From the NCBI GenBank assembly GCA_030390025.1, contig CM059431.1:123568001-123632000 (forward strand): 64,000 bases of DNA. The letters are read 5' to 3'. The position numbers were made by a program, and so were the translations under genes. Below, one piece after another: positions 16,600 to 63,279 of this stretch. The DNA is from Squalus acanthias (lineage: Eukaryota). A model generated the notes under the pieces. The model ran no database searches and had not been told where the DNA came from. It was given only the letters and a program-made list of their open reading frames with translations. How positions within the stretch are numbered: the stretch's first letter is position 1; every line of letters begins with the position of its first letter.

Positions 16600-19500
16600 G
16601 TATTAGTGCCCTGCAAAAAAAAAAGGCGGATTGATGATGTCAGTCGCCGTGCAACGCCAACTTAACATCACTACGGCCAACTTTGACCCTAGCGCTGAGT
16701 TCGGCACTGGGTAATAACCACACGAGAGAAACCCAGCGTGCAAAGAGACTGACAGAGGTGCTGTCAGCACCTCTTAAAGGGATACAGACATCTTTCAGGT
16801 AAGTTTGCATTTAAGTTTTTGTTCTGTTTTTTTTTGATTTTATTGAAGTAGTGGCTTGCTGCAATAGAATTTGAAAGTTTTTTAAGTGTGTAGGGAGTGC
16901 TGCTGGATGCTTGCAAGGCCTCAGATGAAAAAGGAAGGCCTCTGAAGAAAAATAAAATGCTGCAAATACTCAACAGGTCAGGCAACATCTGTGGAAAGAG
17001 AAACAGAGTTCATGTCTCAGGTCGAGATGCTGCCCAACCAGCTGAGTATTTCCAGCATTTTATGCTATAATTTCAGATTTACAGCATCCACTCGCAGAAG
17101 GAAGAGTAAGACACATAAGGGGAGGAAGCCGAAGAGGAGGAAGCAGACGGAAAGATGCATCTCAGACAGTCCCTTTCTGGTCAGGATATCCGGGATGGAA
17201 TCATCCACCCGCGGTTCAAGTGACCACAAGCCCAATTCCCCTTTCAACATTAGTTGTAAAATTCACAATTATCGCGATTCGAAATAACGAGATAAAGCAG
17301 ATTCGTTTCATCAGTTTTATTTCAACGAAATGCTGTCATGATTAAACAGGACACAGAAGCCTGTAAAATGGCCGCCGCGCCTCGTGGCAGAAGCTGCCAG
17401 AATTTTCAGTGGGCAGACAAGATGGCGTTCGAATAAACATTTCAGTATAAGATTGGTTAATATGCAGCAAACACTGATAAAGACAGGATGCAACCTGTCT
17501 GCATTTGACACAATAGCAAAGATATAAGTGCTGGAATCATTTTCCATGCACAAGTAAGGACCATTGTAATGGGCAATCGAAGGCCCATCCAGATACATCA
17601 ATACGCAAATTCCCCACGGCTCTACAATGAGAGAGCCATTCTCGGGTACTTACACAAGTATTCGGAGGCCCCCAAAACCCCGCCAGGGAGGCTCCTAGCC
17701 GGTTCGACAATGGGAAAAACATTAACGGGTAGTTGGCCAGTTTAAGGTGCTACCGAAACCCATTACAAACAAGAATCACCCCATACTGGGAATTTTGAGC
17801 GCCAAGATTTTACGAAGGATGAACATTAAGATTTGGACAGGAGATAAGGGAACACAGCACTATAACTATAGTGAACAAATGTCCATCGGTCTCTTATCTC
17901 GCTGCTGGCTGCTGAACTCTCTTATTCCTCTGATCCTCCCGGGGCTGATTCGTTTGAACTTCGGAACGAGTCGCCTCGACGAAGACCAGTGACCGGGTGC
18001 ACCATCCCGAGGGTCGGTAAACGGTGTTCTGGACCCGAAGGCCCGAAGAGACGAGACGAGACGAGATGAGAAGAGAAGAAGAAGAATCCACGTGCCGCCG
18101 CGGTCAGTAAACCCCGACCGCGCCCGAAAATATATAGACTATTTTTGAACTCTACAGGTTACTGCATGAACTGGTCAAAGACTCTTCTTTGAATTTTACC
18201 GGCTAACTGGTGTCGGTCCAGAAAGACTTTTCTTTGAGTTCTACAGCCGGGCCCGAGCACTGTCGAGTTCTTCATGACAACGGGGAGCCCAGCCTGCTAG
18301 CTGGAGCAGAGAAGATAAACAAGTGGGGTACAGAGACCCCTTCCAACACATGACAGTCAGGTGTTGCAGCAAAACAAGCCGAGTGCCTCGTTTAAAATTC
18401 TCCGAAGTATCACGAGTGGTGAGCATGTTTCCTCGATCCTACAAATCTAGATTAGTGTAGGTATTGATAGGGGAGGGTGGTTTTATTAAGGATAAATATA
18501 ATGTGTTCCCCTTTTTACGATGTGCCGTGCGTTCCTCATTACCCTAGACCAAGTTTTATGAATGTATGTATACTTGTACTGTCATTAATTTGTGCCTATG
18601 ACGTGTACTTCATGATTTTGGACATTATGCAATAAAGATTTCCATTTCGTACTATTCAACCGGGTCTATTTGAGTTTTCTCTGCATTACTGCTCTCGCAC
18701 CTAAGTCCAGTGTTAGAACCGTAAGGGCGAGTGGGTCGAACCACTCACAGGTGCTTATTGCAACAAGGCTGGCCGGAGACCAGAGCAAGCAATAGTATTA
18801 GGCAACGAAGGCCTAACCCTGCACAAGCACCCCTGAACCGAACCCCTTACATAGTCCCGCACCTTTCCTTCCCTCTGTTGCTGACCATCATAGCGTCCTC
18901 TTGGCCACGATGCTGAAATAAAAGCCGCCACAAAGCAAACTTTCAAATCCAAATTTATACATCTATCCATCCAATATGACATCAAGAAATCAACTCATCA
19001 CGCTTATGCATTCTCTTAGTGACTGTCTTGTGTGTGCCTTTGGCTCTCCTACTGAATTCATGCAGTGCTCCCCCAGTGGCTGCAGCATGGCTGGTAGAAG
19101 GCTGCAGACTTTCAGTGGGGGACACTGCAAATAGCCTTGCTGGTTGACCTTGAGGAGCTGGTGGCTAGGAGTGTCAAATCAACCATCTTCTTGTTATTCT
19201 TCACTCTCCTCTCCCTCCTCTTGGTCACCCACTGGCTAGGCAGGCTGCATTTCTTGGGTGTGTGAAATGAGGAAGACACAAGGTTAGAGGAGGGTGGGAA
19301 AGCAAGAGGTGCATGCGAGAAGGAGGATAACATATGAGGATACCAGCATCTTGTATCCTTTCAGCCTCGCCGCTGGACAAGGGCTCAGCCATGCCCCTGC
19401 CAAGGATGGCCAACTCCATCTCCTCCAAGGGGCTGAGGTGAGGCTAGGAATGGGAGATGTGCCTCGTGATTGGTACAGATTGTTGGTAGGTGAGTGATTG

Positions 19501-43469: not shown

Positions 43470-44598
43470 CAATGGCTTATAATTTCCTCGGTGTGAGTTA
43501 TGCCAGCGTTGCATCTTTAAAAACAATTGCAGCTGCTGGTGGCCTACAGAGGGAGTTACGTTGAAGTTTCTTGGGTCTGCTCATTTGTATTGCCACTGGC
43601 GCAGTTATTGATGTCAGGTATAAGCAGTTGAGCTACCTGGAGACTTCTGTGCAGCCTATAAAAACACTTTAGCCTGCACTCAGCAGACTGGGGGACAAAC
43701 AGGTAAGAGACGAACAGTGTTTAGTTCTTTCACTTCTCTCACAAATAATTTCACTACATGTCTTATTAATATTGTTATTATATTTGTATCAAACTAAGAC
43801 TACTCAGACACCACCTGGTCCCAGAGGGCAAAAGGACAGGGCCTCATCCAGGAGAACAACATAGAACTTCAATGTTGCAGACCTCCAAGTCCTCCGCAAG
43901 AAGCTCAAAGGCATGAGGCACAGACTCCTGGTATGGGTGCCATCAAGCCTGCCAGGAATGTAACTCACGCCACCTGGAGGGAGGTAGCACTGCCAACTGC
44001 CTTACCCCCAGTTCTGCACAACAGTGCTGCAAAAAGTTCAACGACCTGACCAGTGCTTGAAAGGTAACATCCTTTTATTCCTTGCCCATCCTGGGCACCA
44101 GCAGACTCTTCACCCTCCTAAAGCAACATTTCCACAACTAATATTTTACACTGTACTCTGGTTAAGGACGGTTCTAACTCTGTATCCTGCACTATGGCCA
44201 TACAGCTCCACTAACACTACTAACTGTCATGCAAAACCCCAAAACCCATTCCTGCACTTTAACAGCCTCATACCCCCACATTTCTTACTTCTCCTCAACT
44301 GTTAATCTTAACCTCATATGCACTATCTTCTGGCAGATCAAATTGACACACAATGCCCACCAAAGACAGGCCAGCAGAAGGGGCATGCCCACCTTACCCA
44401 CATTGAAGAAAAGGCCATGGATTTGTTGCCATGCACGCAGCTCTTGCCATGGGAGATGGCAAGGTTGTCAGCATCTTGCTGGTGACAGTTAGTAACTGAG
44501 CACCTACGCTGTTGCCCTGGCATCCCTTTGAAGCACCACATAGATATAACCTCTCACCCATTTTTTCTGTCTATTTTATCTGAGGGGGTAATGCTCAC
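43470..44598 (+). mobile_element. Degraded Harbinger Myb fragment E, the target of the provirus. It resumes at 58942.
   Basis: QCCKKFNDL..|gtaac at ~44020-44065. Intron-like pyrimidine tract and CAG continue after 58945. Confidence 0.6.
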
Positions 44599-47500
44599 TG
44601 TAAGGGTTTTGTCGTGCCTGTGTCTCAGAGACGGTGCTGGTGCGGGGTTAGGCCTTTGTTGCCTAATACTATTGCTTGCTCTGGTCTCCGGCCAGCCTTT
44701 TTGCAATAAGCACATGTGAGTGGTTCGACCCACTCGCCCTTACGGTTCTAAAACTGGACTTAGGTGCAGGAGCAGTAATGCAGAGAAAACACAAATAGAC
44801 CCGGTTGAATAGTACGAAATGGAAATCTTTATTGCATAGCGTCCAAAATCATGAAGTACATGTCATAGGCGCAAATTAACGAGAGTTGTAAAGTTTCGCA
44901 ATTATCGCGATTCGAAATAACAAGATAGAAGCAGATTCGGTTGATCAGTTTTATTAAACGAAATGCTGTCATGATATAAAGGACACAGAAGCCTGTAAAA
45001 TGGCCGCCGCGCATCATGGCAGAAGCTTCCAGAATTACAGAGGGCAGACAAGATGGCGTTCGAATATACATTTCAATATAAGACGGGATCATACTCGATA
45101 AGCACTGATATAGACAGGATGCAACCTGTTTGCATTCGAAACAATAGCAAAAGATATGAGTGCTGGAATCGTTTTCCATGCACAAGTAAGGACCATTGTA
45201 CTGGGCAATCGAAGGCCCATCCAGACACATCAATACACAAATACCCCCACGGCTCTACAATGAGAGAGCCATTCTCGGGTGATTAAACAAGTATTCGGGG
45301 GCCCCCAAAACCAGTCAGGGAGACGATTCATACGATCCTGGATAGGCCAACAATGGGGAAAACATTAATGGGTAGTTGGCCAGTTTCAGGTGCTACCGAA
45401 ACCCGTTATTGACAAGAATCGCCCCATGCTGGGAGTTTTAAGCACCAACATTTCACAAAGGACAAACATTAAGATTTGAGGGGGAGATAAGGTGACACAG
45501 CACTATAACTATAGTGAACAAATGTCCATCGGTCTCTTGACTCTCCTATCTCGCTGCTGGCTGCTGAACTTTTATTCTCCTATTCTGATCCTCGGGTATC
45601 GCTCTGCTGGACGAGCAGCCTTCTGTGTTTTTCTCTGGACTTTAGCCACACTGGACGGTTATTCGAATGTTGGGTGGAGCTCAATTGGAACGAGTCGCCT
45701 CGACGAAGGCCAGTGACCGGGTGCACCATCCCGAGAGTCGGTAAACGGTGTTTGGACCCGAAGGCCCAACAAGACAAGACAAAATGACAAGAGAAGAAGA
45801 AGAATCCACGTGCCGCCGCGATCAGTAAACCCCGACCGCGCCCGAAAATATACGACCCATTTCTAGAACTCTACAGGTTACTGCACGAACCGGTCAAAGA
45901 CTCTTCTTTGAATTCTACCGACAACTGGTGTCGGTACAGGAAGACTTTTCTTTCAATTCTACAGCCGGGCCCGAGTGCTGTCGAGTTCTTCATGACAACG
46001 GGGAGCCCAGCCTGCGTACCGCAGCAGCGAAGATAAACAAGTGGGGTACAGAGACCCATCCAGACACGTGACAGTCAGGCGCTGCAGCGAAACGAGCCGA
46101 GCGCCTCACTTTAAAATTCTCCGAAGTATCACGAGTGCTGAGCATGTTTCCCGATCCTACAAATCTAGATGCAGTGTAGGTATTGATAAGGGAGGGTGGT
46201 TTTATTAAGGATAAAGTATAATGTGTTCTCCTTTTTACGATGTGCCGTGCGTTCTTCATTACCATAGACCAAGCTTTATGAATGTATGTATACTTGTACT
46301 CTCATTAATTTGCGCCTATGACATGTACTTCATGATTTTGGATGCTATGCAATAAAGATTTCCGTTTTGTGCTATTCAACCGGATCTATTTGAGTTTTTC
46401 TCTGCATTACTGCTCTCGCACCTAAGTCCAGTGTTAGAACCGTAAGGGCGAGTGGGTCGAACCACTCACAGGTGCTTATTGCAACAAGGCTGGCCGGAGA
46501 CCAGAGCAAGCAATAGTATTAGGCAACGAAGGCCTAACCTCGCAACAGCAGCGTCTGCGATACAAGCACGCGACAAAACCCCTTACAGAGTACAAGTATA
46601 CATACATTCATAAAGCTTGGTCTATGGAAATGAAGAACGCACGGCACATCGTAAAAAGGGGAACACATTATACCTTAACCTTAATAAAATCCACCCTCCC
46701 TTATCAATACCTACTCTACGTCTAGATTTGTAGAATCGGGAAACATGCTCACCACTCGTGTTACTTTGGAGAATTTTAAAGTGAGGCACTCGGCTCGTTT
46801 CGCTGCAGCGCCTGACTGTCACGTGTTTGGAAGGGTCTCTGTACCCCACTTGTTTATCTTCGCTGCTGCGACAAACAGGCCAGGCTCCCTGTTGTCATGA
46901 AGAAGTCGATGGACCCAAACCGGATCGTGCAGTAACCCGTAGAATAAAAAAAAAAATGAGTTCTGTATTTATATTTTCGGGCGCGGTCGGGGTTTTCTGA
47001 CCGTGGCAGCAGGTGGATACTTCTTCTTTTCTTGTCGTTTCGTCTTGTCTTTTCGGGCCTTCGGGTCCTGACACCGTTTACCGACTCTCGGGATGGTGCA
47101 CCTGGTCACTTGCCCTCGTCGGGGCGGCTCATTCCGTTTGAGCTCCACCCATCATTCGAATAACCGTCCAGTGCGGCTAAAAGTCAACAGTCAACAGAGT
47201 CCAGCCTTAAAGAAGAGCTTCAGCCCGCGATCGAGCGAGTCAAGAGAATAAGTTCAGCAGTCGGCAGCAAGATAAGAGAGCGATGGACATTTGTTCACTA
47301 TAGTTATAGTGCTGTGTTCCCTTATCTCCCGCTCAAATCTTAATGTTTGTCCTTTGTGTAATATTGGCGCTCAGCGTGGGGCGATTCTTCTCTTTAACGG
47401 GTTTCGGTAGCACCTGAAACTGGCCAACTACCCGTTAATGTTTTCCCCATTGTTGGCCCAGCCAGGATTGTATGAATCGTCTCCCTGACTGGTTTTGGGG

Positions 47501-47913
47501 GCCCCCGAATACTTGCTTAATCACCCGTCAATGTCTCTCTCATTGTAGAGCCGTGGGGGTATTTGTGTATTGATGTGTCTGGATGGGCCTTCGATTGCCC
47601 AGTACAATGGTCCTTACTTGTGCATGGAAAACGATTCCACCACTTATATCTTTGCTATTGTTTCAAATGCAAACAGCTTGCATCCTATCTTTATCAGTGT
47701 TTACCGAGTATGATCCAATCTTATATTGAATGTTTATTCGACGCCATCTTGTCTGCCCACTGTAATTCTGGAAGCTTCTGCCACGATGCGCAGCGGCCAT
47801 TTTTCAGGCTTCTGTGTCCTTTATATCATGACAGCATTTTGTTTAATAAAACTGATCAAACGAATCTGCTTCTATCTTGTTATTTTGAATCGCGATAATT
47901 GCGAAACTTTACA
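44599..47913 (-). repeat. 3' LTR (44599-44886 plus 46588-47913), split by an inverted LTR
   Basis: Colinear with 57262-58941. AATAAA on minus at ~44828-44833. Confidence 0.92.
44887..46587 (+). mobile_element. Nested solo LTR-a in opposite orientation
   Basis: TGTAAAG...CCTTACA termini, TSD GAGT at 44883-44886 and 46588-46591. Confidence 0.93.
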
Positions 47914-48317
47914 GTCACTCCTGTTGATGCGAATAACTCCGCTTATCATATCAATTAAAAAATGGTGGTGAGCAAAATTATCCCGATTCTCCACATCCAA
48001 ACACTCCCTTAACTTAAACTATCTATGGTCTCCATGCCGTCCTCATTTCCCAGGGAAATTACATTGTTTAAACTTGGACAAATCGTAGGCAGTATTGCCT
48101 TTAAACTTACATTGCGTATACGCCTTCCAGGTGCAACAGGCCGATGCCTCTCGTACCACCTGTATATGCATGTTTTTATTATACAAGGAAAAAAATAAAA
48201 TAATCAAAGCAACTATTTTAAAAATACAAAAGTTCCAAACTTATTTACACATATTCATAAACAACAGTCAATTACAAAAACACACATGGAAAAATGGAGC
48301 GGCGTCATCCTGGCCGT

Positions 48318-50668
48318 TTACGTGGTACTTTCCTCGTTCACGCGCACGTAACGTTCTATCCTCTCCCCTGTGTTCTCCTGCTTTGTGAGGCGTTTGCCTC
48401 TCTTGCAGTGCACGACCAATAGGTACACTACAATTATAACTTGGCACACAACCAAAATGTGGGAAGCTATCCTGATCCATGAAGGAACTTCAATATTGGT
48501 GAACAGATCCCACCATGGTGGGATTACTATGTCCAAAATTTCTGTCCCTATTTCTACTGTTTTCTGTTCCAGGGTGTAAAAATGTTTTTGTGATACCATG
48601 ACGGCTTTCAAAAGCTTGGTGAGGTGTTCAGGGAGAGGGGGGATGATGTATCCGAAATGCGCGAAGAATCGCTGCAAGTCTGTGAAATTCTCTTTTACTG
48701 TGAGGTGAATAGTGGATGGTTCAGGGCTCGGGACAATTCGCTGCTGTGCCACTTGAACTTCAGCCCTGGGTTTAAAACAGAAACTGCTGTCACTCACCGG
48801 ACACCGGCTGTGGTTTCCATGCTGGTAGTGTTGCGCTGCAGTGGTAACGCAATATGTTCCACCCCCTATGTATGCCACCTGCGGAGGCACATGATCTTGT
48901 GTCATTGCTTCCATGGTGCAATTCATGGGCTTCGCGCCAGCCGTTCTGAACCCACATTGTGGTGTTAAAAAGGCATTCAAGTGCTGGGGACACAGGATGA
49001 TGTGTGCTCCCTGGCCACGACAACCCGATAGGTCGGTACCTGTCATCATTTGCTCCCAGCGGATGACGTAAGGTGGGACCGCTGCGTAGCGAATGTGGGC
49101 TCCCCCCTGAATGACACCAATGTTCTCCACCCGATACACCGGGGCGGGCTTTGCTGTGTCGCCCAACACCGGCATACGTAGTACTATACCCATGATGGTA
49201 TGGTTTGACCGTCCGCAGTCCACTGGGACTGGGTATGCCTCTGAGGCTAGCCTGAGCTGGCACGGGCTTAATGCGTTCTGAAAAGGGTGGAGCGCCTGCA
49301 GGTGTTTGTTACTTATCCAGGACGAGACCAAACCTTGTTTTAAATCCTCCAAATTACTGCGGCCCTCGCCCAGTAACCACACCCCGTATAGTACGCACAC
49401 CTCGTTCTGCGCAGCTTGATCGGATGCGTTCCGATCTTCCCTGATCAGGGCATTTACCGTTCTCGCATGCTTCTCCAGCTCTGCTATAATCTCTTTTAAA
49501 TGTAGCGTCATGGCCTGGTCCCCGTGTAACTCAGACCCTACTACCTTGTTTTCGCTTGTGGGGATGCTTTTTAACTGTGTTTTTAAACCGTTGATCTGGG
49601 TCTGCAGCTCCACATTGTCTAGAGCGTTGACCACAGATGTTCCTGTATTAAAAGCAGTGAACATATCGTTCACAATACCCCTTCCTTGTCTCCCCACCTG
49701 ACCCAAAACTTCGTGTGGTGTGGTGTACAAGCTTGTTTTGTCAATCTCTGCAAAATGAAACTCGTAGAATTGTCTGAACATGTTTGTCAACAGGACCTGG
49801 TACAATTGTTCCGTCTCTTTGGGGCACCACTCTGGTAAACGCACCTCGGTGAGATTTAGAATCACCGAAGCCACCGTGTAATATACCCCCTGAAATAGTA
49901 TCTGGTCTGTTGGGACCAGTACCAGACCATTCCAGGGCCTCTTAGTGGTTTTAGGGCACCCTTCCTCCTGAGCCAAAACCACCGGAATCGTGGGCGGAGC
50001 CTTGCGTGGGCGCGTGATGATTTCAGTGGCGTTTACCAGGATCGGGGAGAATGGAGCTCCGCACCCCTTTGTGCTGACATCCCACCTCATCCCTTTCCCA
50101 TTATCCTGCCACTGGTGTACGAAAAATATGGATATACCCTTGGGGCAAACGTACTTCGATCCCCACATACAAACATATATTCCCTCATCCGGTTCCCACC
50201 ATTTGTCCCAACAGATTTTCAATTGTCCGTTAGTCCCCGTAATTATCCGATGGGTATTGTTACCCAATCGCTCCCACTCAACCGAGGAATTTCTCATAGT
50301 CTTGCTTAACTTCCGTAACCACCACCATCGGCTCAATGGGACCTTCCCATTGCATGTGAAACAAATCCTTTTGCCGACGGTGACGCTGATCCTGGGTGCA
50401 ATGATCCTGACTCTGGGGCACAGTAAAGAAGTCTCTTTGTAGGCAAATCCGGATGCGCTGGAGTATTCCGTCGAATTCGTTCCCAGCCATCCCGGCCACC
50501 TTCCCTTGTGGAAATACGTGGCGGTCTCCTCAGCCTTTCGCTCGCCGGTCCCATCCGTCGTTATGGGGCCCGTGTCCCCGGATAACCGAACACAACGACA
50601 TCCTTGGTGAGGCCCCGATAGGCCAATCCATATCCGATCGTTGCGAGCACTATCAGAATCCTTTCCAT
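48318..50668 (-). pseudogene. env: Envelope glycoprotein: signal peptide, Ig-like domain, class I F-like fusion protein, TM. One frameshift near 50570-50600.
   Basis: MERILIVLATIGYGLA signal, RQGR|GIVND cleavage site and fusion peptide, heptad repeat, Cys-rich core, TM ILVVCQVIIVVYLLVV. The 672-aa ORF is open to the stop. Confidence 0.88.
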
Positions 50669-51001
50669 TTTTCCTGGTTCCTGTGATCAGATAAAATGAT
50701 ATAGCCAGCCTCCCAAGAGTCTCTGGCTTTTGTGAAGGGTGAGCGGGTCCCTTGACCTCGTCTCACGTTAAAAGACATGTATTCTGGATAGACTTTAACT
50801 ATTCCTATCTCTAACTCCCATCATTTTACCATTTTCTTTTAAAATTAAACTACAAACTTACCAAACTTATGAAACTATAAACTTAAACTTATAAACTTAT
50901 CCTAAACTTAAAACTGTACAGTGCCGCCCGTTCCCTGGGCGGCCTACCTAAATTCTGCGAAGGCTGCCACGAGCTTTTCCCAGTGGTGGGAGGGCACTGA
51001 C

Positions 51002-51670
51002 CTATTCCTTTGATCTGCCGCAGCCTGTCGCCACTGCGCTGGGACTGGGATCTCCCTGGGCTGCCTTGACCTTGAACTTACGCCTGGGGGTGTATGGGGG
51101 ATTTGACCACGACTTCCTGGGCTGGGGTGTCCGACTTGACCTACGGAGGGCTACCTTGGGCAAGATCTCCAGAGCCGACGGACCGGGAACCGAAACTTCC
51201 ACCGTCACGGCCTGTGGTCCCACCACAGCCGCCGGCTCCGTCTCCCCTGGCTCCGCCCCCCTGAACTTGGGATTTGCAGTTTCTGACTCCACCTTACTTG
51301 TTTCCCCAGTAAGTGGAACTCCACTCGCAATCCCTATCTCCCCTATGGGCAAGACTTCCAGGGCCGACCGACCGGGTACCGAGACTTCCACCGTCACGGC
51401 CTGTGGTCCCACCACAGCCGCTGGCTCCGTCTCCCCTAGCTCTGCCCCCCTGGGCTCGGGATCTGCAGTTTCCGACTCCACCCTGTGTGGTTCTCCACTC
51501 GCAGTCCCTATCTCCCCTAAGCTTGAGTCGAGGGAGAAACCTTCATCCTCCGACCCCAGCACCTCTCCGACCGGGTCACTACCTTGATCGAGCTCCTCGA
51601 GCTCTTCCTCATCTGAATCCCAACACCAAGAAAAGATCCTACACTTTTCTAGAATGTCCTCTCCCCTCAA
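51002..51670 (-). CDS. Acidic, internally duplicated ORF, probably a frameshifted integrase C-terminal tail
   Basis: Starts where the pol frame ends. About 60-aa tandem duplication and an LRRSSRTPQP motif. Confidence 0.5.
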   Translation of the reverse strand: MRGEDILEKCRIFSWCWDSDEEELEELDQGSDPVGEVLGSEDEGFSLDSSLGEIGTASGEPHRVESETADPEPRGAELGETEPAAVVGPQAVTVEVSVPGRSALEVLPIGEIGIASGVPLTGETSKVESETANPKFRGAEPGETEPAAVVGPQAVTVEVSVPGPSALEILPKVALRRSSRTPQPRKSWSNPPYTPRRKFKVKAAQGDPSPSAVATGCGRSKE

Positions 51671-54600
51671 GCAGGCTGTGTCTGTGTGCCCTGCGGTCCT
51701 ACCCAGGGCTGCGAGTCCCCACTCGCAGTTTTGGCCCCTGTGATAGGCCCCTGTGCACCCGGTTTATACAACTTGCACTGGTTAATGTGGAACTATTTCG
51801 TGCGCCGGGGTACCTTCACGGCGTACACCATGGGACTCGCCGTATCTACAATACTGTAGGGTCCCATATACAACGGTTCCAAACTCCCTACTCTGGCATA
51901 TTTCCTAACCATGACCTGATCTCCTACTTCCCACTCCTGCTTCTTGCGGGGTTCCAGCAACAGGCGATTGCCCTGGTGCTGTCTTCCCATGTGCCCAGCC
52001 GCCTGCTCGTAAACCTGCTTCAGGCGTTCCAAGAGGGTCTGGACAAACTTGTCCCGTTTCACCTCTTGGAGCTGTACCTCAGTGAGCACCGGGGCTAGTA
52101 CATGGGTGGGGGTTCGCATGATCCACCCAGTCATCACCTCGTACGGGGAATACCCCGTACTCTTCGACTGACTGGCCCGGATCCCCATGAGGACTAGAGG
52201 CAGAACCTCCGCCCATTTTTGGGGCGAGTTCATAGTCTCTTTCCTCAGTTTCTCCTTGAGGGTCCGGTTCATGCGTTCAACAATCCCTGATGACTGGGGA
52301 TTGTGCGCTACGTGCCACTTCCCTTCAATGCCCAAAAGCATGAGGGTGTTCTGCATCACCTGGCCGGTGAAATGACTCCCTTGGTCTGACTCCACGAAAC
52401 GGGGGAGTCTCCAATGCGAGAACACTTCCCGGACCAAGATCTTGGCAGTACCCAGTGCCGTAGCTGTTCTACAGGGGAAGGCTTCTACCCATTTGGAAAA
52501 CAGATCCACCAAGACGAGGCAGTATTTGTAGCCTCCCTGGGTGGTAGGCAGGGGCCCTATGTAATCGATCTGTATCGACTGCCATGGTCCCTCCACCCTC
52601 CTGATGTGCCCCATGTGCACTTTCCTTTTCTGGGGGTCTGGGTTGTTTGCAACGCACACAAGACAGTTTGCACAGAACTTGCAGACCTGCTCCCTGAGTC
52701 CCGGCCACCATCCCGCCTGCTCTACCCGTTGCCAGGTAACCTCGGGCCCGGGATGCCCTGCCCCCGGCCTCTCATGAGCCAACTGGAGGAATTCCCTCCT
52801 GTGCTGCTGCGGCACAACCCACTGTTCCTCGCGGAACAGCATGCCTTCTTTAACGGAGCGGGTTGCCGTACTGTACGGGCCCTCTACCTGCTTGCCCTCA
52901 GTAATCGTTCTGAGAACTGCTTTTAGGGCGGGATCCTGGTTCTGGACGGTCTTAAGGTCTAGGGGCAGTGCTACCCTGGTGTTCCCGGGATTCCCTTCCC
53001 TGCCTTGGATCGCTGCCACGGGTCCGGGTCCATAGGGGTCCCAGAAAATGCCGTTACGGGCACCCTCCCTGGCTAGCGCATCCGCCTGCTGGTTGCCCTC
53101 CCCGCGGGGCTCTGTGGAGGAGTGAGCCTTCACCTTATGGATGAAAATCTCCCCTTCCTCCCCTACTGCTGCTAGGATCTTTTCCAGCAAGGGCTTCACC
53201 GTTAAAGGTCGCCTGTCCGCGGAGGTGTAGCCACGGCGGGACCAAATGGCCAGGTATTCCGTACACGAATTGCACGTAAACATACTGTCCGAACAAATCG
53301 TGTATGGGGTTGGGAAGATTTCTGGGTGGGTAACGACGTACGCCACCGCAGACAGCTCAGCCTGCTGCGCGCTCATGGTGCTGGGGAGTTTAATTGCCAG
53401 GGCAAGGTTTGCTGCAGGGTCATAAACTCCACACCCTGTGAGTCGTTCGCCAGCGGACACTGTGCTGGAACCATCAACATAAATCTCGCGACCTGTGGGA
53501 TGTTTCCCGGCCCGCAATCCTATGTTGACCTCCCACACCCCTTCCACCGAACACTGGTGGGCTGTTCCGGGGTATACCAAGTTGGCCGCGAGCTTGGGCT
53601 CGCAAAGACCTTTAACCCTAAGATCCATCTGGGAAAGGAGAATTGTCCAGCGCGCAATGCGAGCGCTGCTTACGGTCCCATCCTTAATCCTCCCATCTAG
53701 AAGCATCTTAGTTGGCGTGTGATGGGTGAGGAGAGTGATGGGAGAGAGCCCTGTGAAGATCGCTGATCTTTTCACAGCCAATGCGTGGCTAAGAGATGCC
53801 TTTCGCAATTGGAAAAACTCCTCTCCACATCCGTTAACACCCTGGCCGAATAGACAACCGGCCTCAGCTTGCCGTGACGCTCTTGGAGCAGCACAGCGCT
53901 CAAGCTGTCTCCGCTGGCAGCTACCTCCAGGAAAAACTCCTTCCCCCCATCTATGGCCCCTGAAGCTGGCGCGGTTTGCAGATCCCTTTTTAACTTCTCG
54001 AATGCTGCCTGACAACCCTCGTCCCAAGACCACTCCACTCCCTTATGGAGGAGTCGGAGCAGCGGAGCTGCTGTGGCCGCACAGTCCTCGATGAAGTCTC
54101 TACAGTAACCGGTCAGTCCCAGAAAGGACCTCACACCCGTTATGGTGTTGGGAATCGGTAACTCCTGCACCGACTCCCTCCTAGCCTTATCTATGGCTCT
54201 TTCCCCAGCGCGAATGGTCAGACCCAGGAATTTTACTTCCTGCTGACCGATACGTGCTTTCTTAGGTTTAACTTTAAATCCCTTTCTCCCTAGCAGCTCC
54301 AATAACTCGGCTAGCAGTGGTCCATGCTCCTCCCTTGAGTCCGTGAACAGGAGCAAATCATCCACGTACTGCACTATCTGATTGGGCTGACTAAACTCCT
54401 TTAAACTTCCTGCCATACACTGATGGAAAATACTGGGGCTGTTGTGGAAACCCTGTGGCAAACAGTTCCATGTGTACTGTTGTCCTTTGAAAGTAAAGGC
54501 AAACTTGTACTGGTCCTCTCGCCGCAGCGGGATGGACCAAAAACCGTTCGAGATATCCAGCACCGTGACCGTGGTCGCGGACGCTGGGATACTCCCTATT

Positions 54601-55433
54601 AGGTCAGCAACTGATGCTACTGTGGACGCGCAGGCGGGGATGTTACTGTTAAGGACTCTGTAGTCCACCGTGGCCCTCCACGAATTATCCGGCTTCCTCA
54701 CCGGCCATAATGGGGAATTCACGTGTGTGGCTATCGGCCTCAACACGCCCTGCTGCACCAATGAGGACATTGCTGTCTCCATATCGGGTTCTGCTTCTTT
54801 GGGGAAGTTATACTGCTTTTGGGGCCGGGTCATGGGGTTCCCGTCTACGCTGACCTCAAATCCGGTAACCCTCCCACAATCGTGCTTGTGGTTTGCAAAC
54901 GCGTGCATATTATCTGACACGTACGCTTGCATGTCCGTTGGGACATCCGCGACCATAAGCCCGAGGTCGTAACCTCCGGATGGCTTCATGGTACACAGGG
55001 CCCCTTTACCTTCCTTCCCCGGGATTACAACTACCTTGCCTTTCCCACCCTTGGCTCCCCAGAGACAGTGATTCCTAAGGTCCACGAGGATCCCTTGTTC
55101 CGATAGGAGATCCGATCTGAGGATACTTCTGCCACCCCCCTCTTGCCATTTCATCAGTATGCACTTCCATGTGGTGTGGAGTGCTCCTAAATGAATGGAG
55201 AGCGGAATGGAGAATGCGCCAGCCTGCTCTTTTCCCGTGAACCCCGCTAATGCGAATGGAACCTTGGTAGACAGTGGTGAGTCAAAGGGGCTATCCGAAT
55301 GAATCACGGTGCATGAAGCTCCCGTGTCCAACAAATAACTACCCTTCTGCTTCTCTACCTCCATCTCTACCAGGGGTCTTTTCCACGCATCATAGCTGAG
55401 CGGACACAGGTAAACAGGCTGCGCGGGCTCTAG
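51667..55433 (-). pseudogene. pol: pol (PR-RT-degenerate RNase H tether-RNase H-IN). One frameshift at ~53780 and one stop at 51793.
   Basis: LLDTGA, LPQG, YVDD, FLEVAAS tether, YVDGS/AQQAEL/SDS/GNQQAD RNase H, HHCC, IDY/SDQG/VERMN DDE, GPY. The frame continues past the TAG as FHINQCK. Confidence 0.93.
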
Positions 55434-57257
55434 TCATTGGGTACCGGTGGACGGGGTTGTGGCATCTGTGGGGCCGGTAGCGACTGCCACCCTCCCTTGC
55501 AAAATCATAAGGGACCGCATTGCTCCCAACATTGATTCTATCGCATCGGGATGGATAGGCACACCGGCTACTTTCTCAGAGACAGGCGCTTGGGTTCGGG
55601 CTGCGGGAGTTTTAATCCTGGGGTCCTTCCAGGGGTTCCTGCAGTTTTTATGCCAGTGACCTGTCTTCCCGCACTCGTAGCAAACACCACTGGTTTGTGG
55701 GGCGCGATTACCCTCCTGATGCCACTCTTTCTGAGCCGGGGCTGCGGGCCGTGCCTCATGCACCTTTCCCTTAAGGGGATGCGCTCCCGTGCTCCTAGTG
55801 TTCCGATACCCTATGGTGAGTCGATTTAGGACCGACTCCTCTGTTGTGGCGGGGTTAGTGGGATCAAACCACGCTTTGGCCTGCTCCCTGATGGCTGGCA
55901 AGCTGTTGGCTACTAAACACCTGAGCCAATGAGCTTTCCCGGCGCCGTTCAGAAAGGCGCACGCTGGCGCACCTGGGCAGCTACGTTGGTATACTGGCCA
56001 CAGTCTGTCGGCGAAAACCTTCGGGGGTTCTCCCTCCATCTGTATGGTTTGACTCAATCTGACGAACGGACCTTCGTCATCTGCCCCTAACACTTCTAGG
56101 ACCTCGTCCCGTAACTCCTCATAGGTTTTATTTCCCTTCTTGCTCTCGTCTGAGAGACACTGGAGGATGGAGCTATCTAGCGAGAACAGCAACATTTTGG
56201 TCTTTTCCTCATCGTCGCAGCCATTAATTGCTGCGGTCTGTTCTACCTCCCTAAAGTGTATGGAAGGGTCGTCTGACTCAGACAGCTTCCGTACATGGCT
56301 AATCATTGCTCTCAGCTGGTGTGAGCTGTGAGGCAATACAAGCTGGTTCAGGACATCCCCCTCATCCCCATTGGCTGCGTTCGGGCCTCTCTTGTGACCT
56401 CAGAGCGGACACATCGGTCCCGGGCTCGACTCTACCTCCGGGGATTGTCCTACCTCGGGGACCTCCTTCTCTATTTCCACCACTTCCTCCCTTACCCAGG
56501 TTGCCGAATAGCTGGGTGGCGCGGAGGGCACAGTGGCAAATACCTCCTCTGCTTTGTCTGGTAGGGATTTGGGGAATTCCCTACCCACCTGTGGCTGGTT
56601 TGCTGACAGGCTGATGAGGCACACCAAGCCGTTTGCCTTATTCAGGGCCTCTCTTAGGTTCCCTATCTCCTTCTGGCAAACACTGTGGTCGGCTCCCTCA
56701 GGCCTATCCTCGAGGGCCATCTTATATGCCGCCCTAACTCCCTTCAAGCTTTCTTCCTGGGCTTTTATCTGGTTAGCTAGGCGGGCACACCGTTCTCTAA
56801 TCCTACCCTCGTTTAATTTTGCTTCCGTGACCTGACATTCGAGGGAATCAATTTTAGCCTCATGGTGGTTGGCTACTATTTGGCGTTTGTGATGTAACGC
56901 ATTCAATGATGCAATGAGTTTTTGTCCTCCAGTGATCTTTTCCTCCATCTCTACCTCCAGTTCCCTGATCTGAGCTGCCTGTGCCACAATGACCTGGTCC
57001 GAAAGTTGGACTTGCTTCTTGTAGCACATCAGCCAGACCGCTTTCTCTACTGACTTCTTATGCTCTTTACTGCCTGTCCATTTGATGGCGGCGTCTAGCG
57101 GACGCTTATCCATCAGTAGGTCACTTATCCACCTTTTGGTTAAGTTAACCTTCCCAAACACATAGTCGGCTACCCTCTCATCCATCACATTTCGCCTATT
57201 CAAACCAGGGTCTAAAACATTACTCTCCTGCTGCCAATGTCCTGCCACGGTCGCCAT
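55434..57257 (-). pseudogene. gag: gag with coiled coil, late domains, capsid-like region and CCHC knuckle. One in-frame TGA at 56400.
   Basis: ORFs 56400-57395 and 55434-56336 share a frame. CYECGKTGHWHKNC and PSAPPSY motifs. Confidence 0.88.
57239..57256 (-). promoter_or_regulatory. Primer binding site, tRNA-Arg(TCG)-like
   Basis: TGGCGACCGTGGCAGGAC, 5 nt after the 5' LTR, complementary to the vertebrate tRNA-Arg 3' end GTCCTGCCGCGGTCGCCA with one G:U pair (recalled, not searched). Confidence 0.8.
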
Positions 57258-57261
57258 TTTC

Positions 57262-58941
57262 TGTAAGGGTTTCGTGTGCCTGTGTCTCAGAGACGGTGCT
57301 GGTGCGGGGTTAGGCCTTCGTTGCCAAATACTATTGCTTGCTCTGGTCTCCGGCCAGCCTTTTTGCAATAAGCACCTGTGAGTGGTTCGACCCACTCGCC
57401 CTTACGGTTCTAACACTGGACTTAGGTGCGAGAGCAGTAATGCAGAGAAAACTCAAATAGACCCGGTTGAATAGTACGAAATGGAAATCTTTATTGCATA
57501 GCGTCCAAAATCATGAAGTACATGTCATAGGCGCAAGCAATAGTATTAGGCAACGAAGGCCTAACCTCGCACCAGCACCATCTGCGATACAAGCAGGCGA
57601 CAGAACCCCTTACAGAGTACGAGTATACATACATTCATAAAGCTTGGTCTATGGAAATGAAGAACGCACGGCACATCGTAAAAAGGGGAACACATTATAC
57701 CTTAACCTTAATAAAAACCACCCTCCCTTATCAATACCTACACTACGTCTAGATTTGTAGGATTGGGAAACATGCTCACCACTCGTGTTACTTCGGAGAA
57801 TTTTAAAGTGAGGCACTCGGCTCGTTTCGCTGCAGCGCCTGACTGTCACGTGTTTGGAAGGGTCTCTGTACCCCACTTGTTTATCTTCGCTGCTGCGACA
57901 AACAGGCCAGGCTCCCTGTTGTCATGAAGAAGTCGATGGACCCAAACCGGATCGTGCAGTAACCCGTAGAATTAAAAAAAAAATGAGTTCTGTATTTATA
58001 TTTTCGGGCGCGGTCGGGGTTTACTGACCGTTGCGGCACGTGGATTCTTCTTCTTTTCTTGTCGTTTCGTCTTGTCTTTTCGGGTCCAGACACCATTTAC
58101 CGACTCTCGGGATGGTGCACCCGGTCACTTGCCCTCGTCGGGGCGGCTCGTTCCGTTTGAGCTCCACCCAACATTCGAATAACCTTCCAGTGCGGCTAAA
58201 AGTCAAGAGTCAACAGAGTCCAGCCTTAAAGAAGAGCTTCAGCCCGCGGTCGAGCGAGTCAAGAGAATAAGTTCAGCAGTCTGCAGCAAGATAAGAGAGC
58301 GATGGACATTTGTTCACTATAGTTATAGTGCTGTGTTCCCTTATCTCCCGCTCAAATCTTAATGTTTGTCCTTTGTGTAATATTGGCGCTCAAAACTCCC
58401 AGCGTGGGGCGATTCTTCCCTTTAACGGGTTTCGGTAGCACCTGAAACTGGCCAACTACCCGTTAATGTTTCCCCCATTGTTGGCCCAGCCAGGATTGTA
58501 TGAATCATCTCCCTGACTGGTTTTGGGGGCCCCCGAATACTTGCTTAATCACCCGTCAATGTCTCTCTCATTGTAGAGCCGTGGGGGTATTTATGTATTG
58601 ATGTGTCTGGATGGGCCTTCGATTGCCCAGTACAATGGTCCTTACTTGTGCATGGAAAACGATTCCAGCACTTATATCTTTGCTATTGTTTCAAATGCAA
58701 ACAGGTTGCATCCTGTCTTTATCAGTGTTTACCGAGTATGATCCAATCTTATATTGAATGTTTATTCGACGCCATCTTGTCTGCCCACTGTATTTCTGGA
58801 AGCTTCTGCCACGATGCGCGGCGGCCATTTTTCAGGCTTCTGTGTCCTTTATATCATGACAGCATTTTGTTTAATAAAACTGATCAAACGAATCTGCTTC
58901 TATCTTGTTATTTTGAATCGCGATAATTGCGAAACTTTACA
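57262..58941 (-). repeat. 5' LTR with an ~80-bp remnant (57533-57614) of the inverted nested LTR
   Basis: TGTAAAG...CCCTTACA on minus. The remnant ends CCCCTTACA|GAGT exactly as at 46587. Confidence 0.93.
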
Positions 58942-59039
58942 TCACCCACCTTCCTACTTTCCTTTCCTGCAGATCCCCCACAGCATTGGGGGCTGGGGGT
59001 GGGGGCTAGAGAAGGAGGGAGATGCTATTGAGGAGGAGT

Positions 59040-59431
59040 CCAAAAGCCATGGGTGTAAGCCCCACTCCAAAGACATAAGCACATAATCTAGGTTGATACT
59101 TTAGTGCAGTACTGAGGCACTTTTTTTTGAAGAGATGTTGAACCTCAGAGGTGGATGTAAAAAGATCCCAACCATCATTATTTGCAGAAGAGCAAGGAAG
59201 TTCTCCCCAAGTCCTGGCAACCATTTGTTCCTCAACCAACACCACTAAAACAGATTTTCTGATCATTTGTCTCATTGCTGTTTGTGGGACCTTGCTGTGC
59301 ATAAATTAGCAGTCACATTTGCCGACAGTATAACAGTGACTATACTTCAAAAAAAGCAAATTATTGACTGTGAATCACTTTGGTACATCCTCAAGACATC
59401 AAATGTGTTATATAAATGCATGTTCTTTTTC
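59040..59431 (+). mobile_element. Deu-domain SINE, degraded
   Basis: GGTGGATGTAAAAGATCCCA core and ATAAATGCA tail. Confidence 0.7.
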
Positions 59432-60235
59432 TTAAACATTTGAAGCTTCGGAAGATACAAGGTTTTCAGGTGAGAGCATAGTAGTGTGATTAGTTTTGGA
59501 TTGTTCTAGCAAAGAGCTGGTACAGATATAATGGGACAAATCTCCTCCTGTGCTCTAATCATCTTTGGTTCTATTATACATTAGCCCACATTCGCTTGAT
59601 TTCATAGAATACAAATAAACCTCTGGAGTCAGCATAATGGCTTTGCAATTGTTTTACTGGGACAGAAAGAGTTGGATTATTGTCTGTCTAATTGATTTAT
59701 CAACACATTTGCCCTAGCATTCATAAGTGATTGGGTTAATGAATGCCTATTTCAGAAGGTAATGGGAGTAATCAACTTTTATTAGCAAAGGTTAAGCTTG
59801 AAATACCTCTGAGTCCCTGTTTCGTACAAGCATAATATTCACTTCACATGGTACAATGCAAACTTGCATTTTGTATATGTTTATCTTTTCTAAATTGTCG
59901 AGGCAATTACAGCCGTGGTTGACAGATTTATTCATAATATTGGCGTGCATCAATATATGGAAACCATTCCATGAAGAGTGATGGTTCTGGCTGTGAGAAT
60001 TTTCATGAGTTTTATAGTTTCCCCAGAAGAATTCAAATGATAGACCTGAACACGCATGCTGGAAGAGGCATAATTATTCACAATCACTTACTTATCAAAT
60101 ATTTGTTCTAACACAGTTGAATCTTTTGATGGCTTTCTAATATTTGATTAATATATCACTGGCCTCTTTAAAGTAATAATAATGTGTAATTTTTACTAGA
60201 TGTACTGTGTGCCTTCTTTGTGGTGTAAATTAATG

Positions 60236-61228: not shown

Positions 61229-63279
61229 GGGGGGAATTTTAATCCCCCGAGAGGGGCTGTGAGGGGCTTAAATTCTTAAAAAGGCAAACCGAACCCCAAC
61301 CCGCCGCGAACGCGCCTACTTCCGGTTTAACCGGGACGGAGTGTAGGCTTCGCAAAATCCCCCAGAAACTCGAACAGAACCCTAAAGGGAGTGACTTTTG
61401 GACCTTTCATACAAACTTGGGATGATAGGACCTAAGTGAAGTGATTTGAGGTAAAAACCTCAGTTTTGGACATTTTAGAGATCAGGGAAGAAAAAACCCT
61501 GAGGAAAATGACTTTTGTATCTTACTGTTGGGAAAGACACCTTTCACAGACACAGACAGGCTGCGGAGGGGCATGGCCAGGCAATGGACAGCTTTGGGTA
61601 TTGGGGCCCATTCAAGCTGTCTGGGATTTGTTTACACTGCATTCCTACCAAGGAGGAAGAGACAAACCCAAAGCATCACACACACATCGAAATATGAATA
61701 ATCCAAAACCTCTTTTGAAATTCCCAGGCCCAAACAGGATACCAGAAGCCTGAAATCAATAAAACATTTAGTACCCCGATTACTTCATCAAAAACCAATC
61801 AACCAGGTATCCACAGGGACAGATTTACAAGCCTGCCAAAAAACCTAGGACAATAGGGACAAGATTTGGCGTGCAGATAAAGGCGCTGCCTAAATGGGAA
61901 ACATCGGTAGCCATCAGGACATGTTTAACACCAAGTTAAAGCCATCAAAACTGACAAGCCCGCCAAAACTAAGACAATGGAATAAACAGGGCTCATTTGA
62001 AATCTAAAGGAAACCGATTTAGTAAGGGGTTTTGGGCGCGAAAAGGACAAAGGGGCTGAACAGTATAATTGGGGACCTATTCCCCCAAGACTCTCTCTCT
62101 CTCTCTCTCTCTGGACTCTCTGACAATGCTCTCAACGCTCGCACAGCTCTCTCTCAGCTCTGTTCCAGCAAGACACCACAAGCCACGAGCAGTAGGAGGA
62201 AAGAAGGCCAACAACTTCACAAGCAGACCAACAAGCAAGAAGAAACCAGAGCGACTGCCTCAGTGACCATCGGACACCTCGCGGCAACAAGGGCCTTACG
62301 AAACCTTTTACTCAAAAGACTCTAAACCCTAACTCTCAACTGTCAAGGATTTGTTTGGTGAGCATTATCCCTGATCTCCTGAAACCAAAACCTAGCTAGA
62401 TAGTGGGATTTTTGGGAGGGATATGTTTTTTTTTGTATATTGTCATTCTACCTCGCCTGTACCGTGTGTTCCCCAACCTGTGTTTAAGTGTTAAGTGTGT
62501 TTTAAGTTTGTTACCTTTTTCTTTTAATAAAGTCAAAATTCTTTCATCAGAACCTGTTGTCTACTGCATCTTTGTTCACAACCCCTAAATAAGTCCAAAG
62601 TCTAGAACCAGGGGTGTGGGAGCGATTCAAACCGCTCACTGAGTCAGAGGTGAAGGCTGACCCCACACACCACCCCCTACAGGTTGGTGGTCAGGCGAGT
62701 AACCTAGTCTCAAGAGGCGGGTCAGGAATTATAATATTTAAATGAGTCTGCGTGCCTCATATTTCAGCAGCCATGTGGATTTAACTGCTGCAGGCTGGGT
62801 TTCCCAGGGCTTGGAAATCCAGCAGTTGAAGGGAGGTGAGAACTGCCGGATCAAGCAGGTAAGTGCTTTGTCAGCATTACTTGTGGACCAGGAGGAGCAG
62901 GAGTGCTTCCCCCCGGCCGCTCAAGCTTACCTGCAATGGTCCGTCTCCCTCCCGGCAATCCGATCTTCGCCCCCCACACCCACCCCACCCGCCCCCCAAG
63001 ATCCTATACTTGCCCGCAATCTCTGCCCCGCGATCTCTTTCTCCCCACGATCCCCTCCCCTGCTATACCTGGCTTCCGTCTTCACCGCAGGCCTTCCCAT
63101 CTGACAGCCGACCAGCTTCTAAATCTGGCTGGCTGCCAGGCGGGAAAAGGAGAAAAGAAATTCAAATGTGGCCCTGTTGTTAAATTCATCAGGACCTCCG
63201 CTTTCCCCGTACTTCCAGGTTTCCTCGCTGCTAAAGTTGCTCGTGCTCCCTCCCCCACCTTCTTGTAAATATTGGGGCC
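61229..63279. mobile_element. Probable Harbinger-type MITE interrupted by LTR-c
   Basis: Degenerate TIRs GGGGGGAATTTT and AAATATTGGGGCC with GC-rich subterminal motifs. Confidence 0.5.
61342..62681 (+). mobile_element. Solo LTR-c
   Basis: TGTAGG...CCCTACA termini, AATAAA at ~62526, 3' half strongly similar to 30630-31977. TSD not clean. Confidence 0.82.

What the first reader, a model, noticed from the sequence alone, without database searches (positions are those of the whole stretch)
57533..57618. Both LTRs carry the same inverted LTR-in-LTR insertion, collapsed in the 5' LTR
Seen: the 3' LTR holds a full 1.7-kb inverted LTR with TSD GAGT. The 5' LTR has, at the identical site, only its last ~80 bp ending CCTTACA|GAGT, joined through a GCAA microhomology (GGCGCAA/GCAAGCAATAG). 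The matching outer TSD (TCAC) indicates one integration event. Inference: a provirus with a composite ~3.3-kb LTR was reverse transcribed and reintegrated, copying the insertion to both ends, and one copy then lost most of the fold-back. Gene conversion between LTRs is the alternative.
Basis: partly seen in the sequence, partly recalled or inferred. Interest (0 to 1): 0.75.

Follow-up and report, generated by a model that had tools for sequence, protein, structure and literature searches.

The report
Backwards LTR nested in both LTRs
An old, broken retrovirus copy in a shark-like genome carries the same backwards end-repeat inserted at the same spot in both of its own end-repeats (whole in one, an 82-base stub in the other), most likely because a copy with this odd, self-folding end was once reverse-transcribed and reinserted, a neat fossil of known copying rules rather than a new system.

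Summary
Observation confirmed to the base. A 14.3-kb provirus (44599-58941, minus strand, TSD TCAC) has a 3,315-bp 3' LTR holding an inverted 1,701-bp LTR of a sister subfamily (TSD GAGT). The 5' LTR holds that insert's last 82 bp plus GAGT at the same site, joined through GCAA. Public contigs show the uninterrupted site in the family, including the exact single-GAGT form. New here: the site lies between a TATA box and AATAAA, so probably in R. The stub differs from the insert at 5 of 82 bases against 38 of 1,592 for the host LTRs, so it is not younger than the provirus, and no conversion tract shows. Best reading (about 0.62): one reverse-transcription round copied the insert into both LTRs, then a microhomology deletion removed one fold-back arm. 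Gene conversion remains (0.28). A replicating composite subfamily is unsupported: no genome was available, and none of 15 listed joints (of 110) changes strand. The scan's notes showed no earlier both-LTR case. The host is an ERV with an F-like Env; lokiretrovirus versus snakehead-like is unresolved.

The parts
44595..44598 (+). outer target-site duplication TCAC (left)
44599..47913 (-). composite 3' LTR of the provirus, 3,315 bp
44599..44882 (-). host 3' LTR, part downstream of the insertion (end of R with AATAAA at 44828-44833, and U5)
   Evidence: R/U5 assignment inferred from motifs
44883..44886 (+). inner target-site duplication GAGT (copy 1)
44887..46587 (+). inverted solo LTR of a sister subfamily, 1,701 bp, TGT...ACA; 5.5-8.2% mismatches plus many indels against the host LTRs; carries the uninterrupted target site itself; adds three AATAAA in the host's sense (44950, 45571, 46201)
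46588..46591 (+). inner target-site duplication GAGT (copy 2)
46592..47913 (-). host 3' LTR, part upstream of the insertion (U3, GC box, TATAAA at 46968-46973, start of R)
   Evidence: promoter inferred from motifs
48318..50762 (-). env open frame (814 codons stop to stop); C-terminal 538 residues fold like paramyxovirus/pneumovirus F
51793..55433 (-). pol: protease, RT (YVDD), tether RNase H, RNase H, integrase; split over two frames near 53.8 kb, so broken
55434..57257 (-). gag frame with zinc knuckle near its end; interrupted by an in-frame stop at 56400-56402; ends in a stop in frame with pol
57239..57256 (-). 18-nt primer-binding-site-like stretch starting TGG, 5 nt after the 5' LTR (arginine tRNA by recall, not tested)
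   Evidence: isotype recalled
57262..58941 (-). 5' LTR, 1,680 bp, with the stub; TATAAA 57995-58000, AATAAA 57490-57495
57533..57536 (+). GCAA microhomology at the deletion junction
57533..57614 (+). 82-bp stub: U5 end of the inverted inner LTR; folds back on the host U5 end (about -95 kcal/mol for 57262-57618 as DNA, no shuffle control)
57615..57618 (+). GAGT, the one surviving copy of the inner TSD in the 5' LTR
58942..58945 (+). outer target-site duplication TCAC (right)
   Evidence: junction in contigs of X1, X3, X4
17255..18851 (+). independent solo LTR of the same family, TSD TAGT, target site uninterrupted (used as outgroup)

Best explanation
A fossil of one round of ordinary LTR regeneration acting on an unusual template. 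(1) A provirus of a sister subfamily integrated backwards into the R region of an LTR of a parent provirus elsewhere (TSD GAGT; insertion shown, parent inferred). (2) It collapsed to a solo LTR by LTR-LTR recombination (inferred). (3) The parent was transcribed, packaged and reverse-transcribed. Minus-strand DNA ran through the 1.7-kb insert, either from a 5' R that carried it or by an early strand jump onto a 3' R that carried it, so both new LTRs were templated from the composite (inferred from textbook reverse transcription). (4) The DNA integrated here (TSD TCAC; shown). (5) The 5' LTR lost 1,635 bp through a 4-base microhomology, which removes one whole arm of the 1.3-kb fold-back (shown). 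This happened either during plus-strand strong-stop synthesis, which builds only the 5' LTR, or later in the chromosome (not resolved). The product is a dead end, probably single or few in number.
For: Same base, same orientation and same subfamily U5 end in both LTRs, with one outer TSD. The site lies about 380 bp downstream of a GC box plus TATAAA and upstream of the only conserved late AATAAA, so in the part of the LTR present in RNA. Stub versus insert 5 of 82 differences; host LTR pair 38 of 1,592. A copy made at integration is 3.0-4.4 times likelier than one made at a uniform later time, and 13-28 times likelier than as the third of three later events. No homogenised tract beside the site: 2 mismatches in the 200 flanking bases, 4.8 expected, P=0.14; the nearest mismatch is 6 bases from the junction. 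A conversion route needs a break or gap within about 8 bases of the site (inference). One deletion end is 12 bases from the base of the long fold-back and the other lies in its loop. Proviruses with unequal LTRs arise during reverse transcription in HIV-1, 26 of 88 (PMC9278108, passages), and complex elements with one TSD arise by template switching in grasses (PMC1950507).
Against: No parent locus or second composite copy was found; no genome was held. The age argument rests on five differences (Fisher P=0.056 for an excess) and assumes even rates, yet the 3' LTR has more private changes than the 5' LTR (19 versus 7, P=0.03). Conversion soon after integration would look the same. The RNA would have to pass three extra sense AATAAA and long double-stranded arms. 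No A-to-G excess marks passage through double-stranded RNA (host stem 4 A>G versus 5 T>C; inner 8 versus 5). In HIV-1, 24 of 26 asymmetric proviruses had the deletion in the 3' LTR and only 2 of 26 in the 5' LTR, so the 5' polarity here is not good evidence. Intra-element conversion is common in large plant genomes (PMC5751070, abstract). In 12 plant genomes none of 26 look-alike nested pairs shared an insertion site, and the authors concluded that nested pairs are probably not co-mobilised (PMC6911290, passages). The U3/R/U5 borders rest on motifs only.
Confidence: 0.62

Rival explanations
1. Insertion in place, then gene conversion. The inverted provirus landed in this 3' LTR after integration and became a solo LTR. 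A break in the 5' LTR was then repaired from the 3' LTR 11 kb away: either one-sided copying of 82 bases closed by the GCAA microhomology (abortive gap repair), or full conversion followed by deletion.
For: Needs no second locus and no RNA through a fold-back. Microhomology-closed partial copies are typical of abortive gap repair (recalled). Intra-element conversion is frequent in large genomes (PMC5751070, abstract). Flanks of the site are slightly more alike than average, 2 of 200. The host family has hundreds of copies, so self-insertion in place is plausible. No A-to-G signature.
Against: The stub should be younger than the LTR pair but is more diverged, 5 of 82 versus 38 of 1,592. No significant tract (P=0.14). 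One-sided capture needs a break almost exactly at the site (inference).
Confidence: 0.28
2. Two independent insertions of the same subfamily at the same base and in the same orientation in each LTR (a target hotspot), one later deleted.
For: The stub differs from the insert by 6.1%, more than the LTR pair. Self-insertion into the same family is known (PMC6911290).
Against: The family's three TSDs in the window differ (GAGT, TAGT, TCAC). Joints with the site uninterrupted reach hundreds of times single-copy depth, and none of 15 listed joints (of 110) changes strand, so no hotspot is visible.
Confidence: 0.05
3. Assembly artefact: reads from the two LTRs or from other family copies were mixed around a fold-back.
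For: High-copy family with long inverted repeats; internal junctions were not seen in the listed read rows; no long reads.
Against: Both TSD pairs are exact; the stub has 5 differences from the insert; the LTR halves differ steadily by 2.3-2.9%; the exact single-GAGT empty site exists in the family and the right flank junction is in two samples.
Confidence: 0.04

Closest known systems
Nested solo LTRs and same-family 'autoinsertions' in plant LTR retrotransposons (Jedlicka et al. 2019, PMC6911290; Sabot and Schulman 2007, PMC1950507)
   Same: A solo LTR with its own TSD nested in another element of the same family.
   Different: Here the nest is inside the LTR (the least hit region in PMC6911290), inverted, and present at the same base in both LTRs; that study found no nested pair copied with an identical site (0 of 26 look-alikes).
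Complex three-LTR elements formed by template switching (Sabot and Schulman 2007, PMC1950507)
   Same: Extra LTR inside one element, single outer TSD, outer LTRs alike, origin argued from reverse transcription.
   Different: Their third LTR is direct and lies between two internal domains; here it is inverted, lies inside the LTR and has an integrase-type TSD.
Asymmetric LTRs of HIV-1 proviruses (Joseph et al. 2022, PMC9278108)
   Same: One LTR carries a large deletion that the other lacks, attributed to misalignment during reverse transcription.
   Different: Mostly 3' LTR deletions (24 of 26) with no nested insert; here the 5' LTR is the short one.
Inserts in U3 or R of retroviral vectors copied to both LTRs ('double-copy' and R-region vectors; recalled, not found by my searches)
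   Same: The mechanism proposed for step 3.
   Different: Engineered, non-self inserts; here a natural 1.7-kb antisense copy of the LTR itself.
Lokiretroviruses (Wang and Han 2020, PMC7947760) and snakehead-retrovirus-related ERVs (CmiERV lineage I, PMC4422223; clade Huo, PMC6001957)
   Same: gag-pol-env with tether plus RNase H; F-like Env; nearest named Pol relatives are labelled NYNRIN-like in frogs and coelacanth.
   Different: Placement between the two groups was not resolved here; the loki paper's text does not mention sharks.

Membership tests
Endogenous retrovirus (provirus) | Two LTRs with TG...CA ends and a short TSD | tested here: met
   TGT...ACA ends, TSD TCAC, LTR halves 2.3-2.9% apart
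Endogenous retrovirus (provirus) | pol with PR, RT, tether plus RNase H, integrase | tested here: met
   Pfam RVP, RVT_1, RT_RNaseH_2, RNase_H, Integrase_H2C2, rve; best solved-structure hits are MLV-type and foamy RTs (E 6e-56, 4e-53) ahead of Ty3 (2e-39)
Endogenous retrovirus (provirus) | env after pol | tested here: met
   814-codon frame; model pLDDT 71; all 39 listed Foldseek rows are viral F proteins, best E 1.5e-11
Endogenous retrovirus (provirus) | tRNA primer-binding site and polypurine tract | tested here: inconclusive
   TGG-starting 18-mer 5 nt after the 5' LTR; only a weak purine run before the 3' LTR; tRNA isotype recalled, not tested
Nested solo LTR (integrase-made insertion, then LTR-LTR recombination) | One complete LTR flanked by a TSD of a site that exists once in empty copies | tested here: met
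   GAGT both sides; single-GAGT empty form in X1, X4, X12
Insertion copied to both LTRs by reverse transcription | Same junction and orientation in both LTRs under one outer TSD | tested here: met
Insertion copied to both LTRs by reverse transcription | Two copies of the insert as old as the LTR pair | tested here: inconclusive
   5 of 82 versus 38 of 1,592; compatible, likelihood ratio 3-28, few sites
Insertion copied to both LTRs by reverse transcription | A parent or sister locus with other flanks | not testable with these tools
   no genome; short contigs, 15 of 110 joints listed
Intra-element gene conversion | Tract of raised identity around the transferred segment | tested here: not met
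   2 of 200 flank mismatches, P=0.14; stub itself more diverged; low power for an old event
Autointegration inversion product | Inverted LTR identical to the element's own LTR | tested here: not met
   inner LTR 5.5-8.2% mismatched with 21 gap openings in the long segment
Lokiretrovirus | Env similar to Mononegavirales F | tested here: met
fold match; by sequence, 0 of 23 scanned relatives (of 47) hit PF00523.
Lokiretrovirus | RT inside the loki clade, sister to other retroviruses | tested here: inconclusive
   21-row RT tree holds no named loki or snakehead reference; only the pairing with P0048 is supported
Lokiretrovirus | Integrase closest to CGIN1/NYNRIN | tested here: inconclusive
   4 of 19 Pol hits carry the automatic name NYNRIN-like; integrase tree not built
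Snakehead-retrovirus-related ERV (clade Huo) | RT groups with snakehead retrovirus | tested here: inconclusive
   no reference could be fetched; same tree as above

The most novel reading that the evidence does not exclude
The composite is not a one-off. A small subfamily of this shark-type retrovirus replicated with a 3.3-kb LTR holding an antisense copy of itself in R, so its polymerase made multi-kilobase strong-stop DNA through long double-stranded RNA, and the stub-bearing 5' LTR records a deletion made during reverse transcription itself. Such copies would be built-in sources of hairpin RNA against a family of hundreds of copies.
Probability: 0.12. Interest if true: 0.65.

Novelty: new variant of a known kind. 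Interest (0 to 1): 0.42.

Why it matters
If the best reading holds, it is a natural record that a retroviral reverse transcriptase can carry a 1.7-kb antisense self-insert in R into both LTRs, a case of a nested pair moved as one unit, which a plant survey did not find (0 of 26 look-alike pairs). It also warns that LTR length asymmetry and LTR-based dating can be misread. Each step is a known process and the locus is a single dead copy, so the reach is limited unless sister copies exist.

Tried and rejected
Whole-genome junction search: no genome held. Junction pattern in metagenome contigs: 0 matches, but a control pattern from the ordinary LTR also gave 0, so this says nothing. Pol relatives in viral contigs: 3 stretches matched a pattern, 0 confirmed; phage records: no match. 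Sequencing runs: 24 listed, no holder on record as RNA; 4 of 24 laid, all short contigs, so no transcript ends, no strand and no direct view of the internal junctions. X12 is RNA only by guess and is not used as evidence of expression. A-to-G editing test: no excess on any branch. CpG-decay dating: private decays 7 (3' LTR), 1 (5' LTR), 6 (inner), 11 (solo); too few and confounded by source lineages. Autointegration rejected because the inner LTR is a different subfamily. Recombination between two unrelated proviruses rejected by the matching TCAC. Env by sequence: no Pfam, no solved-structure hit, Atlas best score 0.76, a lead only. ARAGORN: no tRNA in the window. Paper searches for this arrangement gave 0 papers; one search gave 3 listings (not read); one search gave 12 listings, none about a natural LTR-in-LTR by title or abstract start; one search listed 30 of 462, of which I opened 2. 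The library lacks most subscription papers and I read no supplements, so absence from print is not shown. Earlier scan notes by sequence gave nothing for the LTR or pol.

Full report
1. What is there. The finding lies in the 5' LTR of a 14,343-bp provirus on the minus strand, 44599-58941, bounded by TCAC on both sides. The 9,348-bp interior holds gag, pol and env. Pol has protease, RT, a tether RNase H, a second RNase H and integrase. Gag has an in-frame stop and pol is split over two frames, so the copy is dead. The host looks like a cartilaginous fish; that rests on earlier scan notes and my recall of a shark SINE, not on a call of mine.

2. The observation. The 3' LTR (3,315 bp) contains a complete 1,701-bp LTR on the opposite strand, 44887-46587, between two GAGT. 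The 5' LTR (1,680 bp) has, at the same base, the last 82 bp of that insert and one GAGT (57533-57618). The join runs through GCAA, shared by host and insert; chance about 0.016. The stub is of the insert's type: 5 mismatches and no gap against the insert, against 7 mismatches and 3 gaps against either host U5 end. The insert is a sister subfamily, 5.5-8.2% from the host LTRs, which are 2.3-2.9% from each other. The site is uninterrupted in the insert itself and in a solo LTR at 17255-18851 (TSD TAGT).

3. Outside evidence. No genome was held. Of 24 listed runs, 4 were laid on 56900-60200; they come from at most 3 samples, and one may be the source of the assembly. The unique flank has depth 8-18. 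Joints that skip the stub sum to 11,616, 9,867 and 3,447 in X1, X3 and X4, some 300-900 times the flank; the tool warns that this is no copy number, so I read it only as 'hundreds of empty copies'. Among them is the exact single-GAGT form (X1, X4, X12), which confirms GAGT as a true duplication. The composite would show as a joint that changes strand. None of the 15 listed joints does, though listed rows go down to depth 12-35; 95 were not shown, so this is weak evidence for low copy number, not absence. The right outer junction is in X1, X3 and X4 at single-copy depth with 10-29 letters on the LTR side.

4. Where in the LTR. In sense orientation the host LTR has a GC box and TATAAA at about 930-947 and the insertion at about 1,324; the conserved AATAAA follows. 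The GC box and late AATAAA are at matching places in the inner and solo copies. The insertion is therefore probably in R (inferred; no RNA ends were available). This matters because R is at both ends of the RNA. By established reverse transcription (steps as in PMC12789967, passages; PMC1950507) one minus strand templates both LTRs. An insert in the parent's 5' R is copied with the strong-stop DNA; one in the 3' R is copied if the first jump happens early (recalled). The second route leaves the parent's promoter and 5' poly(A) control intact, which retroviruses need (PMC3694450, abstract), but requires read-through of three extra AATAAA in the antisense insert.

5. Copying at integration or conversion later. 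Under conversion the stub is younger than the LTR pair. It is not: 5 of 82 against 38 of 1,592. A simple Poisson model gives ratios of 3.0-4.4 against a uniform later date and 13-28 against the third of three later events, over rate multipliers 1-2. No tract is evident (2 of 200 flank mismatches, P=0.14). Against this: five sites are few; rates are uneven (19 versus 7 private changes in 1,291 aligned columns, P=0.03); at two of the five sites the stub agrees with the host U5 end, which could be fold-back-templated correction; and conversion soon after integration cannot be told apart. I put copying by reverse transcription at 0.62, conversion at 0.28, double insertion at 0.05 and artefact at 0.04.

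6. The deletion. The composite LTR can form a 1.3-kb stem (44887-46302 with 46587-47913, 87-93% alike, loop about 284 nt) or a 290-bp stem (44599-44886 with 46298-46588). The deletion runs from 12 bases outside the base of the long stem to its loop, removing one arm. It could date from plus-strand strong-stop synthesis, which builds only the 5' LTR (inference), or from later repair. That the full fold-back survived in the 3' LTR for the whole age of the locus favours the single-stranded stage a little; the age is 5-54 million years for rates of 2.2e-9 to 2.2e-10 (the lower rate is the assumption in PMC4422223). The HIV-1 data cut both ways: asymmetry from reverse transcription is common (26 of 88), but 24 of 26 cases shorten the 3' LTR. 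The stub pairs with the U5 end next to the primer site, which would probably hinder further copying (inference).

7. Family. The C-terminal 538 residues of Env, folded with 30 of 47 relatives, match only paramyxovirus and pneumovirus F proteins in the 39 listed rows. With the dual RNase H this fits lokiretroviruses (PMC7947760, parts 1-2 of 4 and a term search). Earlier notes on this genome favour a snakehead-retrovirus-like branch, known in elephant shark (PMC4422223, part 1 of 2; PMC6001957, passages). My RT tree had no named reference and does not decide. The finding does not depend on this.

8. Novelty. Nested solo LTRs, same-family insertions, LTR regeneration, LTR asymmetry and microhomology deletions are all known. 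The combination, an inverted self-type LTR at the same base in both LTRs, did not turn up in my searches, and a plant survey found no co-mobilised nested pair with an identical site (PMC6911290, passages). Earlier scan notes include inverted Ty1-in-LTR nests in yeast but no both-LTR case among 8 of 17 listed. Papers seen: PMC7947760 (half the text), PMC1950507 (abstract and part 1 of 2), PMC4422223 (part 1 of 2), PMC6911290, PMC9278108, PMC6001957, PMC12789967 (passages), PMC5751070 and PMC3694450 (abstracts); no supplements, which could hold unlisted cases. Verdict: real, a new variant of known processes, interest 0.42; 0.65 if sister copies exist (probability about 0.12).

Noticed in passing
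window 17255-18851: Solo LTR of the same family (1,597 bp, TSD TAGT) inserted into a repeat whose uninterrupted inverted paralog lies at about 11290-13081; it has a shorter U5 end than the other copies.
   Followed up: partly
window 44599-47913 versus 57262-58941: The composite 3' LTR carries 19 private substitutions (7 at CpG) against 7 (1 at CpG) in the 5' LTR, P=0.03; the fold-back may raise methylation or mutation, or the 5' LTR was partly converted by other copies.
   Followed up: partly
window 51002-52098: Between pol and env: a degenerate tandem duplication of about 189 bp (51157-51519) inside a 253-codon acidic open frame on the minus strand with no Pfam match; possible accessory gene.
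   Followed up: no
window 57239-57261: The primer-site-like 18-mer starts 5 nt after the LTR, and the first in-frame ATG of the gag frame overlaps its start.
   Followed up: no
window 30595-31982 and 62200-62687: Two related repeat copies (82-90% alike) with LTR-like look (TATA-like and AATAAA motifs near 62060 and 62527), apparently another family.
   Followed up: no
window 28099-29484: 461-codon minus-strand frame with an RVT_1 match (E 8e-34), probably a LINE fragment.
   Followed up: no
   Followed up: no
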